A stretch of DNA of 62,062 bases, counting the filler. It is 6 parts of 6 records of this genome, joined end to end, with 100 filler letters (N's around TTAATTAATTAA, not from the genome) between each part and the next. Parts side by side here need not be neighbours in the genome. Positions count along the whole stretch, not along the records: positions 34,484 to 40,994 come from DRR723986_9264; 5 more parts are not named here. One strand, given 5' to 3'. How positions within the stretch are numbered: position 1 is the stretch's first letter; the number at the start of each line of letters is the position of its first letter. The notes under the pieces are model-generated. The model was not told the DNA's origin. It ran no database searches and worked only from the letters and a program-made list of their open reading frames with translations. Shown here piece by piece: positions 15,345-56,160 of the stretch. The position numbers were made by a program, and so were the translations under genes.

Positions 15345-16351
15345 GCCTTCGGTCCTTTATCAAAAATCTCTTCCAGACGTTCACGGAATTGCGCCTGACC
15401 TTGGTCAATTGTCAGCCTCATTGGCAGGACACATAAAGACAGCCCCTGCCCCAATAAAGGCGTAATGAATTGCTGCAATTTAACTTCATCTTTTTCGCTG
15501 ACCATGATATTTTGCACTTGCGCCGCCGTACACAGCTCAATCGCCTTGTTAATGTCCTTCTCTTCAAACGCGTGGTGATCGCGGAATGTTAACTCTTCAA
15601 CAACCTCGTACCCCGCCTCTTCTATTGAACGCCGCAGCCGCTGTGGATGAGCAATCCCCGTTAGCATAAGCACTTTTTTTGATCTCTTGTTAGTCTCGGT
15701 ACCGGAATCCGCAAACCGCACAGCTAGAAGATCGCTGCGCGCATGAATGCACAGCGCCGCAGGGTGGTAGTCATTCAGCTCGGCACAAATATCCGCATCA
15801 CGCGCCACCAGCACATCGGCGCGCCGCAGGCCGGGCAATGCCTCGCGCAATCGGCCGGCAGGCAGCACATATTTCTCTTGCAGCGTCTGTGCATCACACA
15901 TCAGGATATCCAGATCGCGGTGCAGCCGCCGATGCTGAAAACCATCGTCAAGCACCACAACATCCACCTCAAAATTTTCAAAAATATACGCGGCACCTAC
16001 CGCCCGGTCCGCCTCAGCTACCACCGGCACATTTAAGGTGCGTGCGTGCAGATACAACTCGTCACCGGCCTTGCTCACATCGGCTCTTACATCAACGCCA
16101 TCGGAAACCACTAAAAGCCCGGAGCTCTTGCGGCCGTAGCCGCGCGCCAGCACCGCCGGACGTTTGCCCAATTCCTGCAGCATGCGCACCAGCATCTGCA
16201 CAAACGGGGTTTTGCCTGTTCCGCCCACCTGAATATTTCCAACGCTGATTACCGGCCCTGCAGCACGTTCAATCTTGGTACGCCCCGAGTCAAAACGCCG
16301 GTTGCGCCCAGCGGTCACCCTGTTAAATACAGCCGCAAGCAACTTTTTCAT
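15335..16351 (-). CDS. lpxK: Tetraacyldisaccharide 4'-kinase
   Basis: ISVGNIQVGGTGKTP, RGYGR, LDDGFQHRRL, LPAGRLRE, FRDHH, SEKDEVK. Confidence 0.95.
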   Translation of the reverse strand: MKKLLAAVFNRVTAGRNRRFDSGRTKIERAAGPVISVGNIQVGGTGKTPFVQMLVRMLQELGKRPAVLARGYGRKSSGLLVVSDGVDVRADVSKAGDELYLHARTLNVPVVAEADRAVGAAYIFENFEVDVVVLDDGFQHRRLHRDLDILMCDAQTLQEKYVLPAGRLREALPGLRRADVLVARDADICAELNDYHPAALCIHARSDLLAVRFADSGTETNKRSKKVLMLTGIAHPQRLRRSIEEAGYEVVEELTFRDHHAFEEKDINKAIELCTAAQVQNIMVSEKDEVKLQQFITPLLGQGLSLCVLPMRLTIDQGQAQFRERLEEIFDKGPKACE

Positions 16352-16448
16352 AAACAGTACTCCCCTTCAGGTAACAGCTCACCCAATACCTCGAAATGTG
16401 GCTCAAAATGCGGCGCGCGCGTTTTTCGCGGAATGCACATGCAGCCAC

Positions 16449-17033
16449 TCATATCAGTTCCATATCCTGCAGGCGCGCCTGCACTAATCTGATAGTATTG
16501 TCCACAGCTTGGCGGTCCAGAGGATCCGGCGGGTGAATTGCATCGGAAATCACAATCTCGATCGAAGCAAACGGCCAGGGAATCAGAAATTTATCCCAAC
16601 TGCGCTCCAGTCGGTGCCCGGAGGCACGAATGCGCGCGCAGTAAATCGGAACTCCGGCACGCGCGGCAGCAACCACCGCACCTGCTTTCATAACATGTCG
16701 CGGCCCGCGCGACCCGTCGGGAGTCAGTAGAACCAGCTGCTCGCGAGCAGCCCGCTCCATCTCCGCCAGCGCTTCTTTGCCACCGCTCGAAGATGATCCA
16801 CGTAAAACCGTGAAGTCCCAGTCCTGCAGAAGGCCGGCCAAAAGCTCACCGTCACCACTGCGGCTCGTTAGTGCTACCGCGCCCCTACCACCAAAAGTTT
16901 TCCAGATTGGCAGCATCTCATCATGCCAGAATACAAGTACTGCCGGCGAATTTGGCAGCGCCTGAGGCACGCGAATGCGCCAGCTTGACGCCAGAAGGCG
17001 AATGGCCCGCCTCACAGCCGAATTTTTACTCAC
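16449..17033 (-). CDS. DUF374 / LpxJ-like lipid A late acyltransferase
   Basis: FWHDEMLP, SRSGDGE, RGSSSSGG, TPDGSRGP, SWDKFLIPWPF; lies between lpxB and lpxK. Confidence 0.75.
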   Translation of the reverse strand: MSKNSAVRRAIRLLASSWRIRVPQALPNSPAVLVFWHDEMLPIWKTFGGRGAVALTSRSGDGELLAGLLQDWDFTVLRGSSSSGGKEALAEMERAAREQLVLLTPDGSRGPRHVMKAGAVVAAARAGVPIYCARIRASGHRLERSWDKFLIPWPFASIEIVISDAIHPPDPLDRQAVDNTIRLVQARLQDMELI

Positions 17034-18178
17034 TCTTTAGAACCTTGCGGTGAATCCAGCAACTCAGCAATGCACTCCGCGGCCTGGCGTGCGGCGGTGC
17101 CGCCTTCTCCCAGCGCCAGACGCACCTGCTCAAAATCTTCCAGCATCGTGCGCCGCGTTTCTGCATTGTGCAGCAATTCCAGAACTGCATTCGCAATGCC
17201 TTCCGCTGTTGCTTCCGCTTGAATCAGCTCACGCACTACCAATTTCCCGGCTATAATATTAACCAAAGAAATGTATGGAAGCTGAACCAGTCGGCGGGCA
17301 ATCAAATACGACAGCGCCGAAGTTTTATACATCATCACAAACGGCATGCCCGCCAGCGCCGACTCCAGCGTTGACGTTCCGGTTTTTACCATGCCCGCGT
17401 CTGCGCGCGCCAAAAGCGCACGGCTATCGGTCGTAATTTTCAATTCAATGTCGGCGGCATCAGCATCCGAATTCAGAACCTTCTGGTGAACCGCACTGTC
17501 CGCCCGTGCCGTCGCCAATTCAAAGCGTGCGTTCGGCAGCTCTTTTTTAACTAGCCTGGCCGCAGCCAACATGATCGGCAGATTCCGTTCAACTTCCTGC
17601 GCGCGGCTGCCCGGCATGAGTGCAATACATGGGTTTTCGGCGACCTGCGTTCGCGCCTCAAAGTTTTTGAATTCAGCTACATCCAGCAGTGGATGCCCTA
17701 CAAAACGTGTGTTGATTCCAAAACGACCGAAAAACTCAACTTCAAATGGAAACACAACCATCAGAACATCGACTACTGCACGCAGCTTCGCGGCGCGTTT
17801 CTGTCCCCAGGCCCACAGCTGTGGAGCGATATAATAACAAACAGGTAAGCCGGATTTGCGCGCCGCACCGGCCAGACGCATGTTAAATCCGGGGTAATCC
17901 ACAGGAATAAACGCATCGTAGCCGCCCCGTGTCAACGCCTCTTCACAACGCTTCAGTAGGCGCCTGAAAAAGAAATAACGTTTGGCGACTTCCCAGAAGC
18001 CAACCACGTTTATCTCCTCCAGCTGGGCCAGGCTCTGCAGGCCAAGAGTCTGCATATGCGGCCCACCAATGCCATCAAATTGACAGTCCGGCCACAGTGT
18101 CCGCAGCGCTTTCATCAAACGCGCGGCATGTAAATCTCCGGATGTTTCTCCGGCCACGATAAAAAAACGCTTGGCCAA
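17030..18178 (-). CDS. lpxB: Lipid-A-disaccharide synthase
   Basis: AGETSGDLH, VDYPGFN, APQLWAW, FPFE, FVGHPL, MPGSR..E, GTSTLE; TTG start. Confidence 0.95.
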   Translation of the reverse strand: MAKRFFIVAGETSGDLHAARLMKALRTLWPDCQFDGIGGPHMQTLGLQSLAQLEEINVVGFWEVAKRYFFFRRLLKRCEEALTRGGYDAFIPVDYPGFNMRLAGAARKSGLPVCYYIAPQLWAWGQKRAAKLRAVVDVLMVVFPFEVEFFGRFGINTRFVGHPLLDVAEFKNFEARTQVAENPCIALMPGSRAQEVERNLPIMLAAARLVKKELPNARFELATARADSAVHQKVLNSDADAADIELKITTDSRALLARADAGMVKTGTSTLESALAGMPFVMMYKTSALSYLIARRLVQLPYISLVNIIAGKLVVRELIQAEATAEGIANAVLELLHNAETRRTMLEDFEQVRLALGEGGTAARQAAECIAELLDSPQGSKE

Positions 18179-28170: not shown

Positions 28171-28270
28171 NNNNNNNNNNNNNNNNNNNNNNNNNNNNNN
28201 NNNNNNNNNNNNNNTTAATTAATTAANNNNNNNNNNNNNNNNNNNNNNNNNNNNNNNNNNNNNNNNNNNN
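28171..28270. other. Artificial contig linker
   Basis: N-run + TTAATTAATTAA (stops in all six frames) + N-run. Confidence 0.99.
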
Positions 28271-34383: not shown

Positions 34384-34483
34384 NNNNNNNNNNNNNNNNN
34401 NNNNNNNNNNNNNNNNNNNNNNNNNNNTTAATTAATTAANNNNNNNNNNNNNNNNNNNNNNNNNNNNNNNNNNNNNNNNNNNN
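34384..34483. other. Artificial contig linker
   Basis: N-run + TTAATTAATTAA + N-run. Confidence 0.99.
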
Positions 34484-35178
34484 GGCGGGATTTCGCATCG
34501 CTTTTTGTGTCCACCGATGACGGCGGCGATCTGCACCAGCGCCTGCTCGAGTGGACCGAAGACGGCCGCTATGGCTGGATCTTCGGGCAGAGCCTCGAGG
34601 ACACATTCTCGCTCAAGGGCGATGTCGTGGGCTTCGATCTGACCGGCATTCTCGACAGCGAGGCCGACAAGGAGCGGATGGCGGTTCTCTCCTATCTTTT
34701 CCGCCGGGTCGAACGCGAGATCGAGGATCGCCGCCCCACCATCATCGTGATCGACGAGGCCTGGAAGGCCCTCGATAACGCGTATTTCGCCGAGCGGCTG
34801 TCGAACTGGCTGGTGACCGCGCGCAAGCAGAACACCGTCGCGGTGATGATGACGCAATACGCGAGCCAGCTCGAGCGCACCCGGACCGGTAAGACCATCA
34901 TCGAGGCGGTGCCGACGCAGATCCTGCTGCCCAATATCCGCGCGCAGCCTGCGGATTACGCCATGCTGAACCTCACGGAGAAAGAGCTCGACGTCCTTCT
35001 CAACACGGGCAGCAACAGCCGCCTCGCACTGATCCGCGACGATCAGGGCTCAATCGTCGTCGATGCCGATCTGAGCGCCCTTGGACCCAATCTCACCATC
35101 CTCGGCGGCATGGAGAAAGGCGAGGCGCTCGTTGGCGCCGATTACCGCGACCGCCCGGACTTCTGGAGGCTTTCATGA
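34484..35178 (+). CDS. virB4: T4SS ATPase VirB4, C-terminal part
   Basis: VGFDLT, YLFRRVE, Walker B IIVIDEAWKAL, TARKQN, TQILLPN. Confidence 0.9.
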
Positions 35179-35342
35179 TTCGTACCCTGTTTCTTCTCAC
35201 CGCGCTCGGCGCTTTGGCCTCCTGCGCCCAGTACCAGGAACCGCAGGCGAACTGCTTCACATTCCTCGCGTCCACGGCACCTGTCGCGCCTGATTGCACC
35301 TTTACGCCTCTAGATGCGCCGGAGGGCGACATTGAAGTCTAG
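35175..35342 (+). CDS. 55-aa lipoprotein missing from the ORF track (VirB7-like or entry-exclusion candidate)
   Basis: MIRTLFLLTALGALASCAQYQEPQANCF...DCTF...EV*; lipobox LASC; ATGA overlap with virB4; GGAGG RBS. Confidence 0.75.
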   Translation: MIRTLFLLTALGALASCAQYQEPQANCFTFLASTAPVAPDCTFTPLDAPEGDIEV

Positions 35343-36486
35343 CCTGCCTCATATCCTCGCATTTTGCTTGCTGCCCGGTCTCGGCTTCGCCCAAGGCGTG
35401 CCGACCAATGACAGTGGGCTGACCGCGCGTGACATCGTCGAGACCGGCGATCGCGAGGCCGATCTTGCGATTCAGGCGGACAAGTTTTCCGTGCGCGAAC
35501 TCATCTCCGAGATCGAGCGCGAACAGCTGGAAGCCCTGCAGCGCATCCTCGATGCCCAGACCAGCTTCGGGGGACAAGGCCTGCCCGCGATGGTTTCGGG
35601 CCTCGAAAGCGGCAGCGGCGATGCGGACCGCTCCGTGGAAGCCGTCTACGGTACGGCAAATATCGATCCCAATCCCGGCGGCGCACAGATGTTCGGAGAC
35701 GCCGCGGAAAACATAGAACAACTCATCATCCGCGTCGCACAGGAAACCAGCGGCTTTGCGGGTGTGGGCCGCGCAGGCCTCTCACCCGTCCAATGGCGCG
35801 CGCTGATGCAAGCCCTCATCTGGCAAGAAAGCCGCTTCACCATCGGCGCGCGGTCCCCGGTTGGCGCCTTCGGCCTCACCCAGATCATGTCGGGCACCGC
35901 CAGCGATCTCGGCATCAACCCGGAATACTACGACAGCCCCTATCTGCAGGTACATGGCGGCGCGCGGTATCTCGCGACGCAACTGAACACCTTCGATGGC
36001 AATATCATCAACGCGCTCGCCGCCTATAACGCCGGACCCGGCAGGGTGTTCGAGTATGGCGGCGTCCCACCCTTTGCCGAGACCCAGCACTACGTTCAGG
36101 TGATCCCAGAACGCTACAATCTCTATCTCAGCCGGATCGGCGGGATTGAAGCTTTGGGCACGATCGATCCCGCACTCTTGGCCAATGCAAACCTCTCGAT
36201 CACTGGGCATGGGGCCGCCTTCTACGGCAACAACTCGCCCCAAGCGATCCGTCAGGCCGCCCTGCGCATCCGCGATATCGTCGAGCGGATTTCCGAGACG
36301 GAAGATTTGCAGGAGAGCATGGCGCTCAACACCTATGCCCGCGCCGAACTGGTGCGCCTCGTCGCCGCCCGCATCCGGCTGCAAGCGGCACGGACCCGTG
36401 TGCTGAGCGCCGAAGAATTGGCGCAGGCCAGCGCCCGCATGGCCGAAGGCGCGTTCATGGATTTTACGATCAGGGAGATTGAATAA
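35332..36486 (+). CDS. Lytic transglycosylase (SLT) domain embedded in a VirB5-like scaffold
   Basis: SLT motifs WQESRF, GLTQIM, AAYNAG; both termini align with the adjacent VirB5; TTG start after GGAGGG. Confidence 0.85.
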   Translation: MKSSLPHILAFCLLPGLGFAQGVPTNDSGLTARDIVETGDREADLAIQADKFSVRELISEIEREQLEALQRILDAQTSFGGQGLPAMVSGLESGSGDADRSVEAVYGTANIDPNPGGAQMFGDAAENIEQLIIRVAQETSGFAGVGRAGLSPVQWRALMQALIWQESRFTIGARSPVGAFGLTQIMSGTASDLGINPEYYDSPYLQVHGGARYLATQLNTFDGNIINALAAYNAGPGRVFEYGGVPPFAETQHYVQVIPERYNLYLSRIGGIEALGTIDPALLANANLSITGHGAAFYGNNSPQAIRQAALRIRDIVERISETEDLQESMALNTYARAELVRLVAARIRLQAARTRVLSAEELAQASARMAEGAFMDFTIREIE

Positions 36487-37295
36487 TGGGACATCTGCTC
36501 TTGAGGACAGCTTTGGCCACGACACTTGGCGTTGGCTTGCAGTTCAGCGCCCTACCCCCTGCCGCAGCACAAGGTGTACCGGTCGTCGACACCCAGAACA
36601 TCGCGCAAAACATCCAGCAACTGCGGCAGATGATCGAAGACGAGATCCTGCAGAACGAGCAGCTGACGCAGCTCCGCGAACAGCTTGCCACACTCACGGA
36701 CCAACTCGCGGAGCTGCAAAGAACCTACGAAGCCCTGACCCGCCTTGCCGAGCTTCCTGAGATCATCCGCACGGAAATGGAAGACGAGTTGAACGGCCTG
36801 CTCGACCAAGAGTTCGGCGACATCCTCGCCACGATTGAGGCGATCAAGACTGGGGATTTCTCGGGCCTCTCGGGCTCCGGCGCAGGCGAGATCGAAACCC
36901 AGATGGACCGCGTTCTGGCCGACCTCGGCTTTGACGAGGACACCCTCTCGGAAATGGCCACGAGCGGAAATCCCGGAGCCAACCGCGTGGCGACGCAGGC
37001 AACAACCGGCGCGCTCGTCTCAGCCGCCGCCCAGAACAGCTATGAAGATGCCGGCCAATCGCTCGAGCGGGTCGACCGCCTTGTGGGGCTTATCGACGAC
37101 ATGGACGAACTCAAGGAAAGCATCGATCTCAACACGCGCGTGACCGCGGAGCTCGCCATTGCGCTGGTCGCCATGTGGCAGCTCGAAGCCATCCAGACCG
37201 TGGGCGATGGCACGGGAGGCGTGATCGATGCCGCCACCATCGCCGAAGAGCAGCGCTTCATGGATTTCACCTTGCCGGACCTGCGGGCTGATTAA
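36486..37295 (+). CDS. virB5: T4SS minor pilin VirB5
   Basis: Signal + QGVPVVD, Gln-rich helix QLAELQRTYEALT, C-terminal LKESIDLNTRVTAE. Confidence 0.85.
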   Translation: MGHLLLRTALATTLGVGLQFSALPPAAAQGVPVVDTQNIAQNIQQLRQMIEDEILQNEQLTQLREQLATLTDQLAELQRTYEALTRLAELPEIIRTEMEDELNGLLDQEFGDILATIEAIKTGDFSGLSGSGAGEIETQMDRVLADLGFDEDTLSEMATSGNPGANRVATQATTGALVSAAAQNSYEDAGQSLERVDRLVGLIDDMDELKESIDLNTRVTAELAIALVAMWQLEAIQTVGDGTGGVIDAATIAEEQRFMDFTLPDLRAD

Positions 37296-37392
37296 GGCGT
37301 TTCGAAATTGATCCCCAAAAACAAATATCGGTTTTCGCGTTCGAGCGCAGCGAGAGGCAGCGAAGAACCGATTCAACTCATTTCGAAACGCC
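37296..37392. repeat. 97-bp palindromic (MITE-like) element
   Basis: 13-bp terminal inverted repeats GGCGTTTCGAAAT / ATTTCGAAACGCC, with internal ATCGGTT/AACCGAT and TTCGC/GCGAA pairing. Confidence 0.6.
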
Positions 37393-37406
37393 GAGCGGGG
37401 GCATGA

Positions 37407-38063
37407 ATGGTGGCGACTGAACAAGAAATCATCGAGGAAGAACTGGTCTACGGTGCCCTGCGCCGCGAACGGCTCTGGCAACGCCTTGGCCTGATGGGCC
37501 TTGTCTTCGGTATCATCGGCTGTCTGAGTGCCGCGGCTGTCTCGATCCTCGATGTCGACCCGCCCCCCGTCGTTGTCCCCTATGATCCCGCCACCGGCTT
37601 TGCACTCCCCGAAGCCTCGGTGGACGCCTCCTCGGTGACCGCCAACCAAGCGATCATCGAGGCGGAGGTGTTCCGCTACGTGACCGACCGCGAGGTCTAC
37701 AACCAGCTCGACAACGATCTGCGCATCCGCAGCGTCCTGCGCCGCTCGGACGGGGCCGCCGAGAGCGGGCTGCGCCAGATCTGGAACAGCGCAAATGAGA
37801 ACTATCCACCGACCGTCTATGGCCCCAATGCTAGGCTCGACGTGGAAATCCTCAGCATCAACCGGATCGGAACCAACCGCGCGACGGTCCGCCTGCGCAA
37901 GCGTCTGACCTCCATCAACGGCACCCAGACCGGCCTCTTCACTGCGACGCTTCTCTTCGAGTTCCGCCCGGAGACCCGCCGCTCCATCGATGAGGTCTGG
38001 ACCAATCCATTCGGCTTCACCGTCCTCGAATATTCCATCCGCTCCGACAGATTGGAGAACTGA
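37407..38063 (+). CDS. virB8: T4SS VirB8
   Basis: Single TM, RYVTDREVY, C-terminal NPFGFTVLEY. Confidence 0.9.
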   Translation: MVATEQEIIEEELVYGALRRERLWQRLGLMGLVFGIIGCLSAAAVSILDVDPPPVVVPYDPATGFALPEASVDASSVTANQAIIEAEVFRYVTDREVYNQLDNDLRIRSVLRRSDGAAESGLRQIWNSANENYPPTVYGPNARLDVEILSINRIGTNRATVRLRKRLTSINGTQTGLFTATLLFEFRPETRRSIDEVWTNPFGFTVLEYSIRSDRLEN

Positions 38064-38065
38064 CG

Positions 38066-38761
38066 TTGTTGTTTATAAGATCGCTTATTTTTGTCATTGC
38101 CCTGTTGCCCGGCCTCGCCTCTGCCGAAGCCATCCCGCGTGGCGGTCTCAACGACAGCCGGGTGCGCTTGGCCACCTACCAGGAGGGTCAGGTCTATCGT
38201 CTCAGCGTGTCGCTCACCCATGTGACCACCATCGAGTTCGGCGAGGGCGAAAGCATCCGCTCGATCATTGCGGGCGACACGGAGGGTTTCGAGATCGATG
38301 GCGTGCCAGGCGGGCAGGCCTTCGCGATCAAGCCTGTGGCGCGCGGGGTGCATACCAATGTGACAGTCTATACGAACCGCCGGAGCTACTACTTCAACGT
38401 CCAGGAGGTCCGCAGCCCAACCTTCTACGTGGTGCAGTTCCGCTATCCGGAGGACGATGCGCGCCCGACCCGGGCCATCGCCGCCCAAGCGCCGAACTAC
38501 AATTACGGCGCCAGCGCGCGGACCGAGTTCACGCCAACGCGCATCTGGGATGACGGGACGTTCACGTATTTCGCGTTTCCGCGGAACGCGCCGGTGCCCG
38601 CGATCTTCCGTTACGCGAATGGCCGCGAGCGGACGGTCAACACGCAAGCCACCGAGGATGGTGTGATCCGGGTCTCGGGGGTGAACAGGCAGTGGGTCCT
38701 GCGGATCGGTGACGAGGTGGTCTGTATCGAGGCGACGCCGCCTGCGGGGGTGGGGTCATGA
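38066..38761 (+). CDS. virB9: T4SS VirB9
   Basis: DSRVRLATY, TTIEFGEGE, TNVTVYTNRRSY, WDDGTFTYFAF, VPAIF, LRIGDEVVCI. Confidence 0.9.
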   Translation: MLFIRSLIFVIALLPGLASAEAIPRGGLNDSRVRLATYQEGQVYRLSVSLTHVTTIEFGEGESIRSIIAGDTEGFEIDGVPGGQAFAIKPVARGVHTNVTVYTNRRSYYFNVQEVRSPTFYVVQFRYPEDDARPTRAIAAQAPNYNYGASARTEFTPTRIWDDGTFTYFAFPRNAPVPAIFRYANGRERTVNTQATEDGVIRVSGVNRQWVLRIGDEVVCIEATPPAGVGS

Positions 38762-40137
38762 GCGACACCGGAAACGCAGACCTCGAAAAACGCCTCGCTG
38801 CCCTCGAACAAGGCAAGGGCGCAGGTTTGCCCCCTGCCCCACGGCGCTCACCGCTGCTCGCACTGGTCGTCGTCCTCGTGATCGGCGCGGGAGGTGCATT
38901 GCTCTATCTCCTGTCCCAACCCGAGGAAGAAGAAGCCTTGCCAACGGCCACACCGGACGTATTCCAAAACGAAGGGGACGGCTTTGGCGCCATCGAAACC
39001 CTTCCCCCGCCCGAGCCTGAGGTGGTTCTGGTCGCACCGGAACCGGTGGAACCGAATGCCGAGCTCTTGGCTCAGCTCGAAGCCCTGCAGGCCCAGATCG
39101 AGGAATTGCGCAACGCCCCTGAACCGGTCGTCGAGGAAGACACCGCCGCCGCAGAGGCGATCGACGCGCTGACCGCTCAGATCGCTGCGCTCCAAGCCGC
39201 CTCGGAAGCCGCACAGCAACGATTCCAGGACGAACTGACGGCGCGGGATCGCAGCCTTGAGCAACTCCGCACGGATCTGGAACTGGCCCAACTCGAGGCC
39301 AACCGCCCCCTCCCCGCACCCACAGGGCCCACCGAGGACGAGTTGCGCGCGCGGGAAGAAGAACGGCTGCGCCGCGAGGAAGAAGCACGACGGCTCGCGG
39401 AACTTGAACGCCGCGCTACTGAGGAGCGTGCGTTTCAGGAACGCCGGATCGCCTCGCCCACCGTCGCCTTTGGCGGCACGTCCGGTGCGAATGAGACGGC
39501 TCTGACCGAACGCACTTTTGGCGAGGTGACGGATTTTGTGCTGAACGGCGCGCTGCCGACTTCGGTGACGCAAGCCGAGGTCATCGCCAACCCGTCCAAT
39601 ACCATCATCCAGGGCACGATGATCCAGGCCGTCATGGAAACCGCCCTCGACAGCTCCCTGCCCGGCCAGACCCGGGCCATTGTTTCCGAAGACGTGTTCA
39701 GTGTCGATGGTTCCCGCCTCCTGATCCCACGCGGATCCCGCCTGATCGGGCGCTATCGATCCGGCGTCGATATCGCGCAGCGCCGCGTCACCATCGCATG
39801 GGACCGGATCATCCTGCCCGATAATCAAACCATCCAGATCAGCTCCTTCGGGGGCGATGAACTGGGTCGCTCAGGTGTGACCGGCTTTGTCGATACGCGC
39901 TTTGATGAGCGCTTTGGCTCGGCAGCGCTGATTTCACTGATCTCCGCCGCACCAAGCGCCGCCGCCGCAAATGTCCAGGACGAAACAGCCGCGGACGTGC
40001 TCGAAGACGTGGGCGATGATCTAGCGGATGCCACGGACAGCGTGATTGGCGACTATCTCTCCATCGGCCCCGTCATCTATGTCGACCAGGGCGCGCGCGT
40101 CACGGTCATGGTCGACCGCGATCTGGAGATATTCTGA
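38758..40137 (+). CDS. virB10: T4SS VirB10
   Basis: TM + Pro-rich linker; QGTMIQAVMETALDSSLPG, LLIPRGSRLIG, D.LGRSG, VDQGARVTVMVDRDL. Confidence 0.92.
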   Translation: MSDTGNADLEKRLAALEQGKGAGLPPAPRRSPLLALVVVLVIGAGGALLYLLSQPEEEEALPTATPDVFQNEGDGFGAIETLPPPEPEVVLVAPEPVEPNAELLAQLEALQAQIEELRNAPEPVVEEDTAAAEAIDALTAQIAALQAASEAAQQRFQDELTARDRSLEQLRTDLELAQLEANRPLPAPTGPTEDELRAREEERLRREEEARRLAELERRATEERAFQERRIASPTVAFGGTSGANETALTERTFGEVTDFVLNGALPTSVTQAEVIANPSNTIIQGTMIQAVMETALDSSLPGQTRAIVSEDVFSVDGSRLLIPRGSRLIGRYRSGVDIAQRRVTIAWDRIILPDNQTIQISSFGGDELGRSGVTGFVDTRFDERFGSAALISLISAAPSAAAANVQDETAADVLEDVGDDLADATDSVIGDYLSIGPVIYVDQGARVTVMVDRDLEIF

Positions 40138-40141
40138 GCCC

Positions 40142-40994
40142 ATGTCGCTGAGCTATCTCGAAACCTCGCTCGACCGGATCAACGCCGCCGCCCGCGACGA
40201 TGTCATCGAGATCTGCATCAACCCTGATGGCACCTGCTGGGGCGAATTCCAGGGCGATCATTTCATGCGAAAGCTGGACCAGGCGTTGACTGCAACCGAA
40301 GTGAAAGACCTCGGCAACCAGATCGCCTCCTCCGCCAACACCACGATGAGCAAGGACCGCCCCATCATCTCGGTCTCGATCACCTACAAGGGGCGGCCGA
40401 TCCGGGCGCAGGTCATTACCCCGCCCGCCGTGCTCTCGGCCATGTCGATCAGCCTGCGGTTCTTTTCAAGCCTGCCGCTTGACGGGATTGCGCTTGATTT
40501 CCTTTTTGGCAAGGAGCGCAAACTCGAAGAACTCCGCCTCGAGAAAACCCACGAACTGCGCGAAGTGGTGGCCGCGGGCGTGATCGACGATGCGCTGGCC
40601 TTTTGCGTCGACAACAAGCTTAACATGATCGTCTCTGGTGGCACCTCCACCGGCAAGACCGTGGCTGCGCGCAAGATCCTCTCGCACGTGCCATCCGAGG
40701 AACGCATCGTTACCATCGAAGAAGCCGCCGAGCTTTTGCCAACCCAGCCAAATGCCGTGACACTCATCGCCAATCGCGACGCGGAATTCCAGACCGCCGA
40801 TGTGTTGCTGACTGCCACGCTGCGCATGCGCCCCGACCGGATCATCCTCGGCGAGGTGCGCGGCAAGGAGGCCATGACCTTTCTCGAAGCCATCAACACC
40901 GGCCATGGCGGCTCCATGACCACCCTACATGCAGAAACCCCGCAACTTGCCGTGCAGCGGCTCGCGATCGCGGCGCTCAAGACCGAGATCCCGA
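40142..40994 (+). CDS. virB11: T4SS ATPase VirB11 (3' truncated)
   Basis: SGGTSTGKT, TIEEAAEL, LRMRPDRIILGEVRG, NTGHGGSMTTLHA. Confidence 0.92.
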
Positions 40995-41094
40995 NNNNNN
41001 NNNNNNNNNNNNNNNNNNNNNNNNNNNNNNNNNNNNNNTTAATTAATTAANNNNNNNNNNNNNNNNNNNNNNNNNNNNNNNNNNNNNNNNNNNN
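40995..41094. other. Artificial contig linker
   Basis: N-run + TTAATTAATTAA + N-run. Confidence 0.99.
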
Positions 41095-50838: not shown

Positions 50839-50938
50839 NNNNNNNNNNNNNNNNNNNNNNNNNNNNNNNNNNNNNNNNNNNNTTAATTAATTAANNNNNN
50901 NNNNNNNNNNNNNNNNNNNNNNNNNNNNNNNNNNNNNN
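50839..50938. other. Artificial contig linker
   Basis: N-run + TTAATTAATTAA + N-run. Confidence 0.99.
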
Positions 50939-56060: not shown

Positions 56061-56160
56061 NNNNNNNNNNNNNNNNNNNNNNNNNNNNNNNNNNNNNNNN
56101 NNNNTTAATTAATTAANNNNNNNNNNNNNNNNNNNNNNNNNNNNNNNNNNNNNNNNNNNN
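56061..56160. other. Artificial contig linker
   Basis: N-run + TTAATTAATTAA + N-run. Confidence 0.99.

What the first reader, a model, noticed from the sequence alone, without database searches (positions are those of the whole stretch)
35332..37295. T4SS lytic transglycosylase built inside a VirB5 pilus-tip paralogue (VirB5::SLT next to a normal VirB5)
Seen in sequence: the 35332-36486 protein aligns without gaps to the adjacent VirB5 at both ends. At the N-terminus, AQGVPTND...QLEALQRILDAQT versus AQGVPVVD...QLAELQRTYEALT gives 17/58 identities by hand count. At the C-terminus, ..LQESMALNTYARAEL...EGAFMDFT versus ..LKESIDLNTRVTAEL...EQRFMDFT gives 24/72. Between these sits an intact SLT domain (QES, GLTQ, AYNAG). 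Established: VirB5 is the minor pilin/adhesin at the pilus tip, while canonical VirB1 is a separate periplasmic SLT acting on donor peptidoglycan. Inference: a duplicated VirB5 acquired a peptidoglycan-cleaving domain and may co-assemble with VirB5 into a heteromeric tip. That could carry the enzyme through the donor wall or into the recipient's wall. Automated annotation would probably label it just VirB1 or SLT. I do not know of a description of this architecture but could not search for one.
Basis: partly seen in the sequence, partly recalled or inferred. Interest (0 to 1): 0.82.

Follow-up and report, generated by a model that had tools for sequence, protein, structure and literature searches.

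The report
VirB5-framed lytic transglycosylase in T4SS operon
A conjugation (type IV secretion) operon of marine Rhodobacterales plasmids encodes, next to the normal pilus-tip protein VirB5, an old and conserved copy of VirB5 whose middle part has been replaced by a cell-wall-cutting enzyme, which may show how this machine gets its stalk or pilus through the cell wall.

Summary
The 384-aa protein (35332-36486) aligns end to end with the adjacent VirB5 (36486-37295). hhalign gives probability 99.4%, E 5.7e-22. An intact VirB1-like SLT domain (residues 127-271, catalytic Glu166) takes the place of the roughly 70-residue middle of VirB5. The window protein itself scores below the Pfam VirB5 cut-off, but 3 of 15 diverged orthologues pass it.

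The tandem hybrid-virB5 is present in 15 of 17 related loci. A separate virB1 heads the operon in all 12 Rhodobacterales loci that have enough upstream sequence. About 270 PLSDB plasmids carry a full-length relative.

A tree separates the hybrids from the VirB5s at 99/99 support, and the two halves have matching branching. This fits one old duplication that has been inherited together since.

Databases call the protein only "lytic transglycosylase". Seven full-text searches and the passages I read gave no description of it as a VirB5 relative.

The architecture is shown. The mechanism is inferred: VirB5-type contacts place the enzyme at the T4SS stalk or pilus apex, much as FlgJ works on the flagellar rod. 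Co-assembly with VirB5 and action on the recipient wall remain untested.

New variant of a known kind; interest 0.6.

The parts
34507..35178 (+). 3' end of virB4 (the contig begins at 34484 after an N spacer)
   Evidence: TIGR00929 VirB4_CagE E 3.2e-49, profile positions 570-759 of 792; N spacers
35175..35342 (+). 55-aa lipoprotein ORF (lipobox LASC), ATGA overlap with the virB4 stop; candidate VirB7-like subunit
   Evidence: Read from the sequence. BLAST-conserved in L002, L003, L004 and L007, and annotated hypothetical in pMaD6. No Pfam family
35332..36486 (+). Whole hybrid gene (VirB5 frame + SLT), 384 aa from TTG 35332 (390 aa if from ATG 35314)
35332..35388 (+). Predicted Sec signal peptide (residues 1-19, ...LGFA followed by QGVP)
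   Evidence: Inferred from the hydrophobic stretch and the conserved A-Q-G-V-P junction shared with VirB5. No signal-peptide program was run
35389..35577 (+). N-terminal VirB5-like segment (residues 20-82): QGVPxxD motif and a long helix (model H28-78)
   Evidence: hhalign probability 98.2%, E 3.5e-14 to VirB5 28-90. P24 and D27 invariant in 21 of 21. AF2 helix
35578..35709 (+). Linker with short helices (residues 83-126)
   Evidence: AF2 secondary structure, pLDDT 50-79
35710..36144 (+). VirB1-like family-1 lytic transglycosylase (SLT) domain, residues 127-271; catalytic Glu166 at 35827-35829
   Evidence: PF01464 E 1.7e-19. VIA-align Z 16.6, rmsd 1.7, 131 aligned, 36% identity to Slt 5o2n_A. 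48% identity over 128 aa to the operon's own VirB1 in pMaD6
36145..36483 (+). C-terminal VirB5-like segment (residues 272-384): two long helices (model H280-322, H326-375), LNTYARAE motif, FMDFT tail
   Evidence: hhalign probability 98.0%, E 1.5e-13 to VirB5 160-265. PF07996 positions 132-195 of 197, E 0.0023. BLASTP E 6e-7
36486..37295 (+). Canonical virB5 (269 aa)
   Evidence: PF07996 E 4e-19, 70 bits. Profile hits TrwJ 7o3v E 4.2e-12 and TraC 1r8i E 2.7e-5
37407..38063 (+). virB8
   Evidence: PF04335 E 2e-50
38066..38761 (+). virB9
   Evidence: PF03524 E 4.6e-49; TIGR02781 E 1.5e-49
38758..40137 (+). virB10
   Evidence: PF03743 E 3.3e-54
40142..40994 (+). virB11, cut off by the contig end (N spacer from 40995)
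   Evidence: TIGR02788 E 1e-61. Start placed by comparison with pMaD6 VirB11. N spacers

Best explanation
The gene encodes a secreted periplasmic chimera. It has the helical frame of a VirB5 pilus-tip/stalk protein: N-terminal helix with the QGVPxxD start (residues 20-82) and two C-terminal helices (residues 280-384). The roughly 70-residue middle 'appendage' of VirB5 is replaced by a linker and a catalytically intact, VirB1-like lytic transglycosylase domain (residues 127-271). Shown: the homology at both ends; the intact enzyme motifs; translational coupling to virB5; a separate virB1 in relatives; and one old duplication inherited together with virB5. Inferred mechanism: the VirB5-type frame makes the contacts that VirB5 makes, namely with the VirB6 pentamer and/or with VirB5 protomers. 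This would hold the enzyme at the apex of the nascent stalk, so peptidoglycan is cut exactly where the stalk or pilus is pushed through the donor wall. That would be a T4SS counterpart of the flagellar rod cap FlgJ. The plain VirB1 at the operon head would do the general local clearing for the envelope complex.
For: Architecture: (1) Whole-length hhalign to VirB5 gives probability 99.4%, E 5.7e-22, collinear from the signal-peptide junction to the last residues. Each end alone scores about 98%. (2) The independent Pfam VirB5 model PF07996 matches the correct profile ends. Among 15 diverged orthologues, 8 match at E <= 0.05 and 3 pass the gathering score (37.0, 32.7, 26.6 bits against 24.7). 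Two others match profile positions 1-49 and 1-27 at their N-terminus. Of the 21 aligned members, 12 match at E <= 0.1. (3) The AF2 model (pLDDT 80.1) has the helix order long helix - SLT - two long helices. The VirB5 model has the same order but is of low confidence. (4) The SLT fold scores Z 16.6 and the catalytic motif is invariant. The SLT module is 48% identical over 128 aa to the operon's VirB1.

Selection and linkage: (5) The hybrid is followed directly by virB5 in 15 of 17 loci examined. A virB1 lies upstream of virB2 in all 12 Rhodobacterales loci with enough upstream sequence (pMaD6 annotation). (6) 270 of 769 matching plasmid records cover at least 80% of the protein. (7) The tree of the shared segments (22 rows, none left out) splits the hybrids from the VirB5s at 99/99 with matching sub-topologies. 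(8) The two paralogues of one locus resemble each other more than paralogues of different loci do. This holds in the last 20 aligned columns (0.38 vs 0.25; 0 of 5000 permutations) and in the first 12 (0.62 vs 0.56; p about 0.0008). It fits a shared partner or mutual contact.

Context from papers (passages read): in R388 a VirB5 pentamer sits on a VirB6 pentamer and is pushed outward as the pilus grows from its base (PMC9259494). The processed C-terminal part of A. tumefaciens VirB1 (VirB1*) interacts with VirB2 and VirB5 (PMC2653234).
Against: The window protein's own PF07996 score (18.6-18.8 bits, E 0.002-0.003) is below the Pfam cut-off of 24.7. Of the 15 diverged orthologues, 7 gave no PF07996 match at E <= 0.05. 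The profile of the C-terminal segment alone found no VirB5 chain in the PDB sequence search; its best hit, E 0.031, is an unrelated secretin. The link to solved VirB5 structures therefore runs only through the neighbouring VirB5. Packing of the N-terminal helix against the C-terminal helices could not be inspected because no coordinates are available. The paralogue covariation rests on only about five independent lineages and could equally come from local gene conversion. No experiment exists on localisation, partners, activity or phenotype. VirB1-type enzymes are often dispensable (PMC12857230 and PMC9259494, passages), so the hybrid could be a redundant second enzyme.
Confidence: 0.5

Rival explanations
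1. Mixed pilus tip that carries the enzyme outward. The hybrid co-assembles with VirB5 into a heteropentamer, rides on the growing pilus, and may also cut the recipient's peptidoglycan after contact.
For: The frame is homologous to VirB5 at both ends. The two genes are translationally coupled. The N-terminal start and C-terminal tail covary between the paralogues of one locus. In R388 the VirB5 pentamer is pushed out at the pilus tip, with its N-terminal part projecting like that of a pore-forming protein (PMC9259494, passage).
Against: Nothing here shows hetero-oligomers. An extra domain of about 195 residues on each subunit would have to pass the outer-membrane channel. The recipient's peptidoglycan lies beneath its outer membrane. 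The covariation has other explanations, such as a common partner like VirB6 or gene conversion.
Confidence: 0.12
2. A second, soluble VirB1. The enzyme acts as an ordinary periplasmic T4SS lytic transglycosylase. The VirB5-derived helices are an evolutionary left-over that serves only as a stabilising, dimerising or regulatory coiled coil, with no docking on the stalk.
For: [quoted passage not shown] VirB1-type enzymes act without fixed incorporation in studied systems (PMC12857230, passage).
Against: The helical segments are conserved about as well as VirB5 itself: mean column identity 46% (N segment) and 53% (C segment), against 53% for VirB5. They keep VirB5 signature positions (QGVPxxD, LNT..AE) over lineages down to 37% identity. 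A plain VirB1 is kept in the same operon in all 12 informative loci, which argues against simple redundancy.
Confidence: 0.25
3. A wall-binding adhesin variant of VirB5. The SLT domain serves mainly to bind glycan strands, as proposed for inactive VirB1 homologues in some Gram-positive systems, rather than to cut them.
For: The review PMC12857230 (passage) reports proposals that inactive VirB1 homologues act as adhesins.
Against: The catalytic Glu-Ser and the other SLT motifs are invariant in 21 of 21 family members. This is the pattern of an active enzyme.
Confidence: 0.05
4. Chance or compositional similarity of helical, coiled-coil-like sequences. On this reading there is no real relation to VirB5.
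For: Helical segments do give some background similarity. The crossed control (C segment of the hybrid against N segment of VirB5) reached 3.5 SD, with 4 of 1000 shuffles as high.
Against: The true pairs reach 5.6 and 12.4 SD with 0 of 1000 shuffles. The match is collinear end to end, E 5.7e-22. An independent Pfam model matches at the right profile ends and passes its threshold in 3 orthologues.
Confidence: 0.02

Closest known systems
VirB5 / TraC (pKM101) / TrwJ (R388), Pfam PF07996
   Same: Signal peptide followed by the Q-G-(V/I)-P-x-x-D start. Long N-terminal helix and two long C-terminal helices with the (D)LNT..AE motif. Encoded after virB4 in a VirB-type operon. Homology E 5.7e-22 to the neighbouring VirB5, which itself matches TrwJ and TraC.
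   Different: The middle part (VirB5 residues about 91-161) is replaced by about 195 residues that hold an enzyme domain. The window protein is below the Pfam threshold. No evidence yet that it forms pentamers or reaches the pilus tip.
VirB1 / TrwN / TraL-type T4SS lytic transglycosylases (SLT, PF01464)
   Same: Family-1 SLT fold with a catalytic Glu-Ser. 48% identity over 128 aa to the VirB1 of the same operon type. T4SS-encoded.
   Different: Canonical VirB1 is a small stand-alone enzyme at the operon head, and one is present here as well in relatives. The hybrid's enzyme is embedded between VirB5-type helices and lies between virB4 and virB5.
A. tumefaciens VirB1* (processed C-terminal part of VirB1)
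   Same: It links the wall-cutting protein to VirB5 and VirB2 and to pilus formation (PMC2653234, passage). The VirB1 of this operon type ends about 15 residues after its SLT domain, so it has no comparable tail. The hybrid may supply that link; this is inference.
   Different: No sequence relation was tested or claimed. In Agrobacterium the link is a cleaved peptide, whereas here it would be a VirB5-homologous frame.
FlgJ, the flagellar rod cap with a peptidoglycan hydrolase domain (and the split FlgJ + SltF or BB0259 arrangements)
   Same: It works alike in principle: a cap or tip scaffold of a growing axial structure carries the wall hydrolase to the point of penetration (abstracts of PMC13584718 and PMC8517470 in the listing). 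The best NCBIfam hit of the SLT domain is the BB0259 flagellar lytic transglycosylase model, E 2.8e-18.
   Different: No homology of the scaffold parts, and a different machine. FlgJ's enzyme sits at the C-terminus, not inserted. The details on SltF of Rhodobacter are recalled, not read here.
T3SS EtgA bound to the inner-rod protein EscI
   Same: A secretion-system lytic transglycosylase positioned by binding an axial component. The EscI-EtgA fusion crystal structure 8urn appears among the SLT fold matches: Z 9.8, rmsd 3.7, 116 aligned (title only).
   Different: Two separate natural proteins (the fusion is an artificial construct) in another secretion system.
Pilin-SLT fusions of Patescibacteria
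   Same: A structural T4SS subunit fused to a wall-cutting domain (AI notes, not checked here).
   Different: There the carrier is the VirB2-like pilin and the enzyme family differs (SLT_3). Different phylum, monoderm-like envelope.

Membership tests
VirB5/TraC/TrbJ family (Pfam PF07996 'T4SS') | Sequence match to the family model above its curated threshold (24.7 bits) | tested here: inconclusive
   The window protein scores 18.6-18.8 bits, E 0.002-0.003, at profile positions 132-195. Orthologues P0245, P0271 and P0257 pass (37.0, 32.7, 26.6 bits). 8 of 15 diverged orthologues match at E <= 0.05 and 7 of 15 do not.
VirB5/TraC/TrbJ family (Pfam PF07996 'T4SS') | Homology to a bona fide VirB5 over both the N-terminal and the C-terminal helices | tested here: met
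   hhalign 99.4%, E 5.7e-22 over the whole length. The N and C segments separately score 98.2% and 98.0%. The reference VirB5 matches TrwJ at E 4.2e-12 and TraC at E 2.7e-5.
VirB5/TraC/TrbJ family (Pfam PF07996 'T4SS') | Three-helix-bundle fold with an appendage, as in TraC 1R8I and TrwJ | tested here: inconclusive
   The AF2 model has the right helix order (H28-78, H280-322, H326-375; pLDDT 80.1). Packing could not be inspected. The fold-search lists were filled by SLT domains and generic helical bundles.
VirB5/TraC/TrbJ family (Pfam PF07996 'T4SS') | Pentamer on VirB6 / location at the pilus tip | not testable with these tools
   Needs biochemistry, cryo-EM or immunogold labelling.
VirB1-type specialised lytic transglycosylases (SLT, PF01464; GH23 family 1) | SLT fold with catalytic Glu-Ser and the GL(T/M)Q and AYNAG motifs | tested here: met
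   PF01464 E 1.7e-19. Z 16.6, rmsd 1.7, 131 aligned to 5o2n_A. E166, S167, G181, Q184 and A230-G235 are invariant in 21 of 21.
VirB1-type specialised lytic transglycosylases (SLT, PF01464; GH23 family 1) | Encoded within a T4SS gene cluster | tested here: met
   Between virB4 and virB5 in the window and in 15 of 17 related loci.
VirB1-type specialised lytic transglycosylases (SLT, PF01464; GH23 family 1) | Stand-alone small periplasmic enzyme that is the operon's single VirB1 | tested here: not met
   The enzyme is embedded in a VirB5 frame. A separate 206-aa VirB1 heads the operon in pMaD6 and in all 12 informative Rhodobacterales loci. The window's own contig ends inside virB4, so its virB1 could not be seen.
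VirB1-type specialised lytic transglycosylases (SLT, PF01464; GH23 family 1) | Peptidoglycan-cleaving activity | not testable with these tools
   Needs a zymogram or muropeptide analysis.
FlgJ-type cap-plus-hydrolase proteins (analogy only) | Homology to the FlgJ rod-cap domain | not tested
   No FlgJ family appeared in the Pfam or NCBIfam scans. It is considered only as a functional analogue.

The most novel reading that the evidence does not exclude
The hybrid is a 'drill head' for the T4SS. It assembles as or into the VirB5-type cap on the VirB6 platform. It cuts the donor's peptidoglycan from the tip of the growing stalk or pilus, as FlgJ does for the flagellar rod. It is then either exchanged for VirB5 or stays mixed with it at the tip. 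This would give T4SSs a previously unrecognised, structurally integrated way to cross the wall. It would also help explain why stand-alone VirB1 is often dispensable.
Probability: 0.3. Interest if true: 0.8.

Novelty: new variant of a known kind. Interest (0 to 1): 0.6.

Why it matters
How the T4SS stalk and pilus cross the peptidoglycan layer is not settled. VirB1 is regarded as a free periplasmic helper and is often non-essential. The R388 structure places VirB5 at the apex of the structure that must pass the wall. A conserved VirB5 copy that carries the wall-cutting domain gives a concrete, testable model for site-specific wall opening. It occurs in hundreds of conjugative plasmids of marine Rhodobacterales, whose T4SS has been shown to conjugate (Dinoroseobacter shibae plasmids, PMC4886583, abstract and passages). 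It also shows that the VirB5 'appendage' position tolerates replacement by a whole enzyme domain. This matters for annotation, because these proteins are currently labelled only as lytic transglycosylases. It also matters for understanding how VirB5 paralogues diversify.

Tried and rejected
1. Complex prediction of the hybrid (residues 21-384) with VirB5 (29-269) returned 'no answer' (score 0.02 against a mark of 0.34; alignments not used; controls not run). This is neither support nor evidence against binding.

2. Foldseek against the PDB with the whole model returned only SLT enzymes, none at E <= 0.001. The 50 rows of VIA-align pdb_via_wide held SLT domains (Z up to 16.6) and generic helical bundles (Z 8-9.6, mostly spanning residues about 82-360). 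No VirB5, TraC or TrwJ chain was listed. One domain fills such lists, so this does not exclude the VirB5 fold.

3. The AF2 model of the neighbouring VirB5 from an 11-row alignment had pLDDT 52.1. That is too poor for a fold search, so I used only its helix order.

4. The ESM Atlas search with residues 272-384 gave one weak row (0.77), an SLT-named cluster. It is uninformative.

5. The PDB sequence search with the C-segment profile alone found no VirB5.

6. Extension to Rhizobiales. In Rhizobium paknamense (L016) an SLT protein follows virB4 and precedes a VirB5 (PF07996 E 5.4e-10). Only the N-terminal signal/QVPVxD region is similar (BLASTP E 4e-4). There was no PF07996 match, and hhalign of this type (3 sequences) to VirB5 gave probability 1.5%. 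Whether this type is the same hybrid is left open.

7. No whole genome is held for this window, so virB1, virB2, virB3 and virB6 of this very assembly could not be located.

8. The two homologous-protein searches listed only close relatives (at least 79% and 86% identity) apart from one 69% row (P0033). Diversity came from the representative search and the genome loci.

9. Literature. Seven full-text searches and 'find' passages in PMC12857230, PMC9259494, PMC4886583, PMC6209633, PMC2653234 and the preprint 10.64898/2026.07.31.741991 gave no description of a VirB5-framed lytic transglycosylase. Subscription journals and supplements were not searchable.
Full report
**Setting.** The 62-kb window is not one molecule. 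Five pairs of 44-N spacers divide it into six pieces, and GC content runs from about 0.50 to 0.71. The finding lies on a 6.5-kb piece (34484-40994). On the + strand this piece carries the 3' end of virB4, a 55-aa lipoprotein ORF, the protein in question, then virB5, virB8, virB9, virB10 and a truncated virB11. No whole genome is held for the window, so the rest of the operon had to be read from relatives.

**Check of the observation.** The gene runs from TTG 35332 (or ATG 35314) to 36486. Its stop overlaps the virB5 start as TAATG.
- C-terminal count: I find 20 of 54 between LQES and FMDFT. BLASTP gives 29 of 98 without gaps (E 6e-7), and 28 of 92 at the N end (E 9e-4).
- Shuffling controls: the true pairs are 5.6 and 12.4 SD above 1000 shuffles (0 of 1000 as high). 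The crossed controls give 0.2 and 3.5 SD.
- Enzyme domain: Pfam finds SLT (residues 161-250 of the 390-aa form, E 1.7e-19). It also finds a sub-threshold match to the C-terminal end of the VirB5 model PF07996 (18.8 bits, cut-off 24.7).

**Is the similarity to VirB5 real?**
- A search of 1.84 billion cluster representatives listed 150 proteins. Eleven of them match end to end at 38-52% identity.
- I aligned 15 diverged representatives, 5 close relatives and the window protein (alignment A1). P24 and D27 of the QGVPxxD start and the SLT catalytic motifs are invariant in all 21. R312, N333 and A352 in the C-terminal helices are nearly invariant.
- Scanned singly against Pfam, 12 of the 21 match PF07996 at E <= 0.1.
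- Among the 15 diverged representatives, 8 match at E <= 0.05 and 3 pass the curated threshold. All of those 3 match the C-terminal profile end (positions 111-195). Two others match the N-terminal end (positions 1-49 and 1-27). Seven give nothing.
- From genome loci I built matched 11-row alignments of the hybrid's N segment, its C segment and the neighbouring VirB5. hhalign gives 98.2% (E 3.5e-14; 1-63 to VirB5 28-90), 98.0% (E 1.5e-13; to VirB5 160-265 of 266), and 99.4% (E 5.7e-22) over the whole length.
- The VirB5 profile in turn hits the solved VirB5 proteins TrwJ (E 4.2e-12) and TraC (E 2.7e-5).
- The relationship is therefore homology, not helical composition.

**Anatomy.**
- The AF2 model (pLDDT 80.1) has a long helix at 28-78, short helices to about 126, a compact domain at 127-271, and two long helices at 280-322 and 326-375.
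- The compact domain superposes on lytic transglycosylases: Slt 5o2n_A with Z 16.6, rmsd 1.7 over 131 residues and 36% identity, and also MltC and MltF.
- This domain is 48% identical over 128 residues to the stand-alone VirB1 of the same operon type.
- About 195 residues (a linker plus a VirB1-like enzyme) thus occupy the place of the roughly 70-residue middle part of VirB5.
- Both proteins have a hydrophobic leader ending ...A followed by QGVP. I read this as a Sec signal peptide; that is an inference, as no predictor was run.

**Surroundings and distribution.**
- The 6.5-kb piece matches 132 PLSDB plasmids at the DNA level. In 105 of them the match covers at least 80% of the piece. Nearly all are Rhodobacterales, and 110 are typed as conjugative.
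- In Marinovum algicola pMaD6 the gene order is virB1 (206 aa) - B2 - B3 - B4 - small ORF - hybrid ('Soluble lytic murein transglycosylase') - VirB5 - B8 - B9 - B10 - B11 - two small ORFs - B6.
- A tblastn search with the protein hits 769 plasmid records, and 270 of them cover at least 80% of its length. All listed full-length rows are Rhodobacterales.
- A scan of one genome per species returned 80 loci, of which 17 match beyond the SLT domain. In 15 of these 17 the hybrid is followed directly by virB5. The exceptions are L009, an isolated rearranged remnant, and L016 from Rhizobium, whose VirB5 was found only by Pfam.
- All 12 Rhodobacterales loci with enough upstream sequence have a separate virB1 before virB2. 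L016 also has an SLT gene in that position.
- Two layouts exist: virB6 after virB11, or virB6 between virB5 and virB8.

**History.**
- I made a maximum-likelihood tree of the shared N and C segments: 22 rows (11 hybrids and 11 VirB5s), none left out, with 169 of 174 columns kept. It separates the two paralogues at 99/99 support, and the two halves have the same lineage structure.
- This fits one duplication and insertion before these T4SS lineages diverged, followed by joint inheritance.
- The paralogues of one locus are more alike than paralogues of different loci in the extreme C-terminal tail (0.38 vs 0.25; 0 of 5000 permutations) and in the first 12 mature residues (0.62 vs 0.56; p about 0.0008).
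- Only about five independent lineages underlie these numbers. Gene conversion is an alternative to co-adaptation to a common partner.

**Mechanism.** Shown: the protein is exported, has a VirB5 frame, carries a catalytically intact VirB1-like enzyme, is co-translated with VirB5, and has been conserved beside both VirB5 and VirB1 for a long time.

Inferred: the frame makes VirB5-type contacts. In R388 a VirB5 pentamer sits on the VirB6 pentamer, one VirB5 binding between two VirB6, and is pushed outward as the pilus grows from its base (PMC9259494, passages). This would put the enzyme where the stalk or pilus must cross the wall.

In Agrobacterium the link between the wall-cutting protein and VirB5/VirB2 is the cleaved VirB1* tail (PMC2653234, passage). 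The VirB1 of this operon type ends about 15 residues after its SLT domain, so the hybrid may supply that link.

The closest working analogy is FlgJ, the flagellar rod cap that carries a wall hydrolase (abstracts). The T3SS EtgA-EscI pair is another (title of 8urn).

**What is known.**
- Sources name the protein 'lytic transglycosylase domain-containing protein' or similar.
- One submitter's name for a Palleronia orthologue is 'Type IV secretion system protein', so the Pfam overlap is occasionally picked up.
- A Paracoccus yeei genome paper lists a 377-aa 'lytic murein transglycosylase' between VirB4-like and VirB5-like genes. It notes two such enzymes in the cluster that could replace VirB1, without mentioning VirB5 homology (PMC6209633, passages).
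- The 2025 nomenclature review describes Gram-negative VirB1 homologues as soluble proteins of a single class (PMC12857230, passages).
- Seven full-text searches found no description of the hybrid. Subscription journals and supplements were not searchable.
- An earlier AI note of this scan (e1-1949582) reports the same kind of hybrid on a Shinella-like plasmid, with about 300 plasmids. That agrees with my counts but is not independent evidence.

**Verdict.** The co-assembly and recipient-wall ideas remain open. I rate it a new variant of a known kind (VirB5 paralogue plus VirB1 module). It is widespread in one bacterial order and gives a clear experimental programme. Interest 0.6.

Noticed in passing
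window 35175-35342 (+): A 55-aa ORF with a lipoprotein signal (…LGALASC…) overlaps the virB4 stop (ATGA) and the start of the hybrid gene. It is BLAST-conserved in L002, L003, L004 and L007 and is annotated 'hypothetical' in pMaD6. It has no Pfam family. It is a possible VirB7-like lipoprotein; a P. yeei paper states that a related cluster (pYEE5) lacks VirB7- and VirB1-like proteins.
   Followed up: partly
L001 (pMaD6) 15642-17335; L002, L004, L007: In the window's operon type, virB6 is not between virB5 and virB8. It follows virB11 after two small ORFs (64 and 137 aa). A second operon type (L010-L014, L017, L075) keeps virB6 in the canonical place.
   Followed up: partly
whole window: The window is a chain of six pieces joined by paired 44-N spacers (28171-28270, 34384-34483, 40995-41094, 50839-50938, 56061-56160). 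GC is about 0.50-0.57 in the first 34 kb and 0.59-0.71 afterwards. The pieces may not all come from one replicon or even one organism.
   Followed up: no
window 35389-35424 and 36427-36483; loci: The first roughly 12 mature residues and the last roughly 20 residues of the hybrid and of VirB5 covary from locus to locus. Examples of tails: FMDFT/FMDFT, FIKVKGG/FIKVLGG and YLQVRLE/YLTIKLP. This points to a shared binding partner, mutual contact or local gene conversion.
   Followed up: partly
L016 9701-11731 (Rhizobium paknamense): After virB4 lies a 363-aa SLT protein whose mature start QVPVTD matches that of the following VirB5 (QVPVID). It has a Cys-containing C-terminal extension, and a 78-aa lipoprotein follows VirB5. 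Only the N-terminal similarity is detectable (E 4e-4). It may be a second, more diverged type of the same idea (also P0303, P0318).
   Followed up: partly
L009 4065-6060: A 554-aa ORF matches only residues 19-295 of the hybrid and is followed by a VirB8 fragment. BLAST found no virB4 or virB5 nearby. It looks like a rearranged remnant of the operon in a Thioclava MAG.
   Followed up: no
P0009 and other 362-aa database entries: Many RefSeq entries of this protein are 362 aa and start at the Val of QGVP (read as Met). This removes the signal peptide. The 384-aa form with a TTG start is probably the true one.
   Followed up: no
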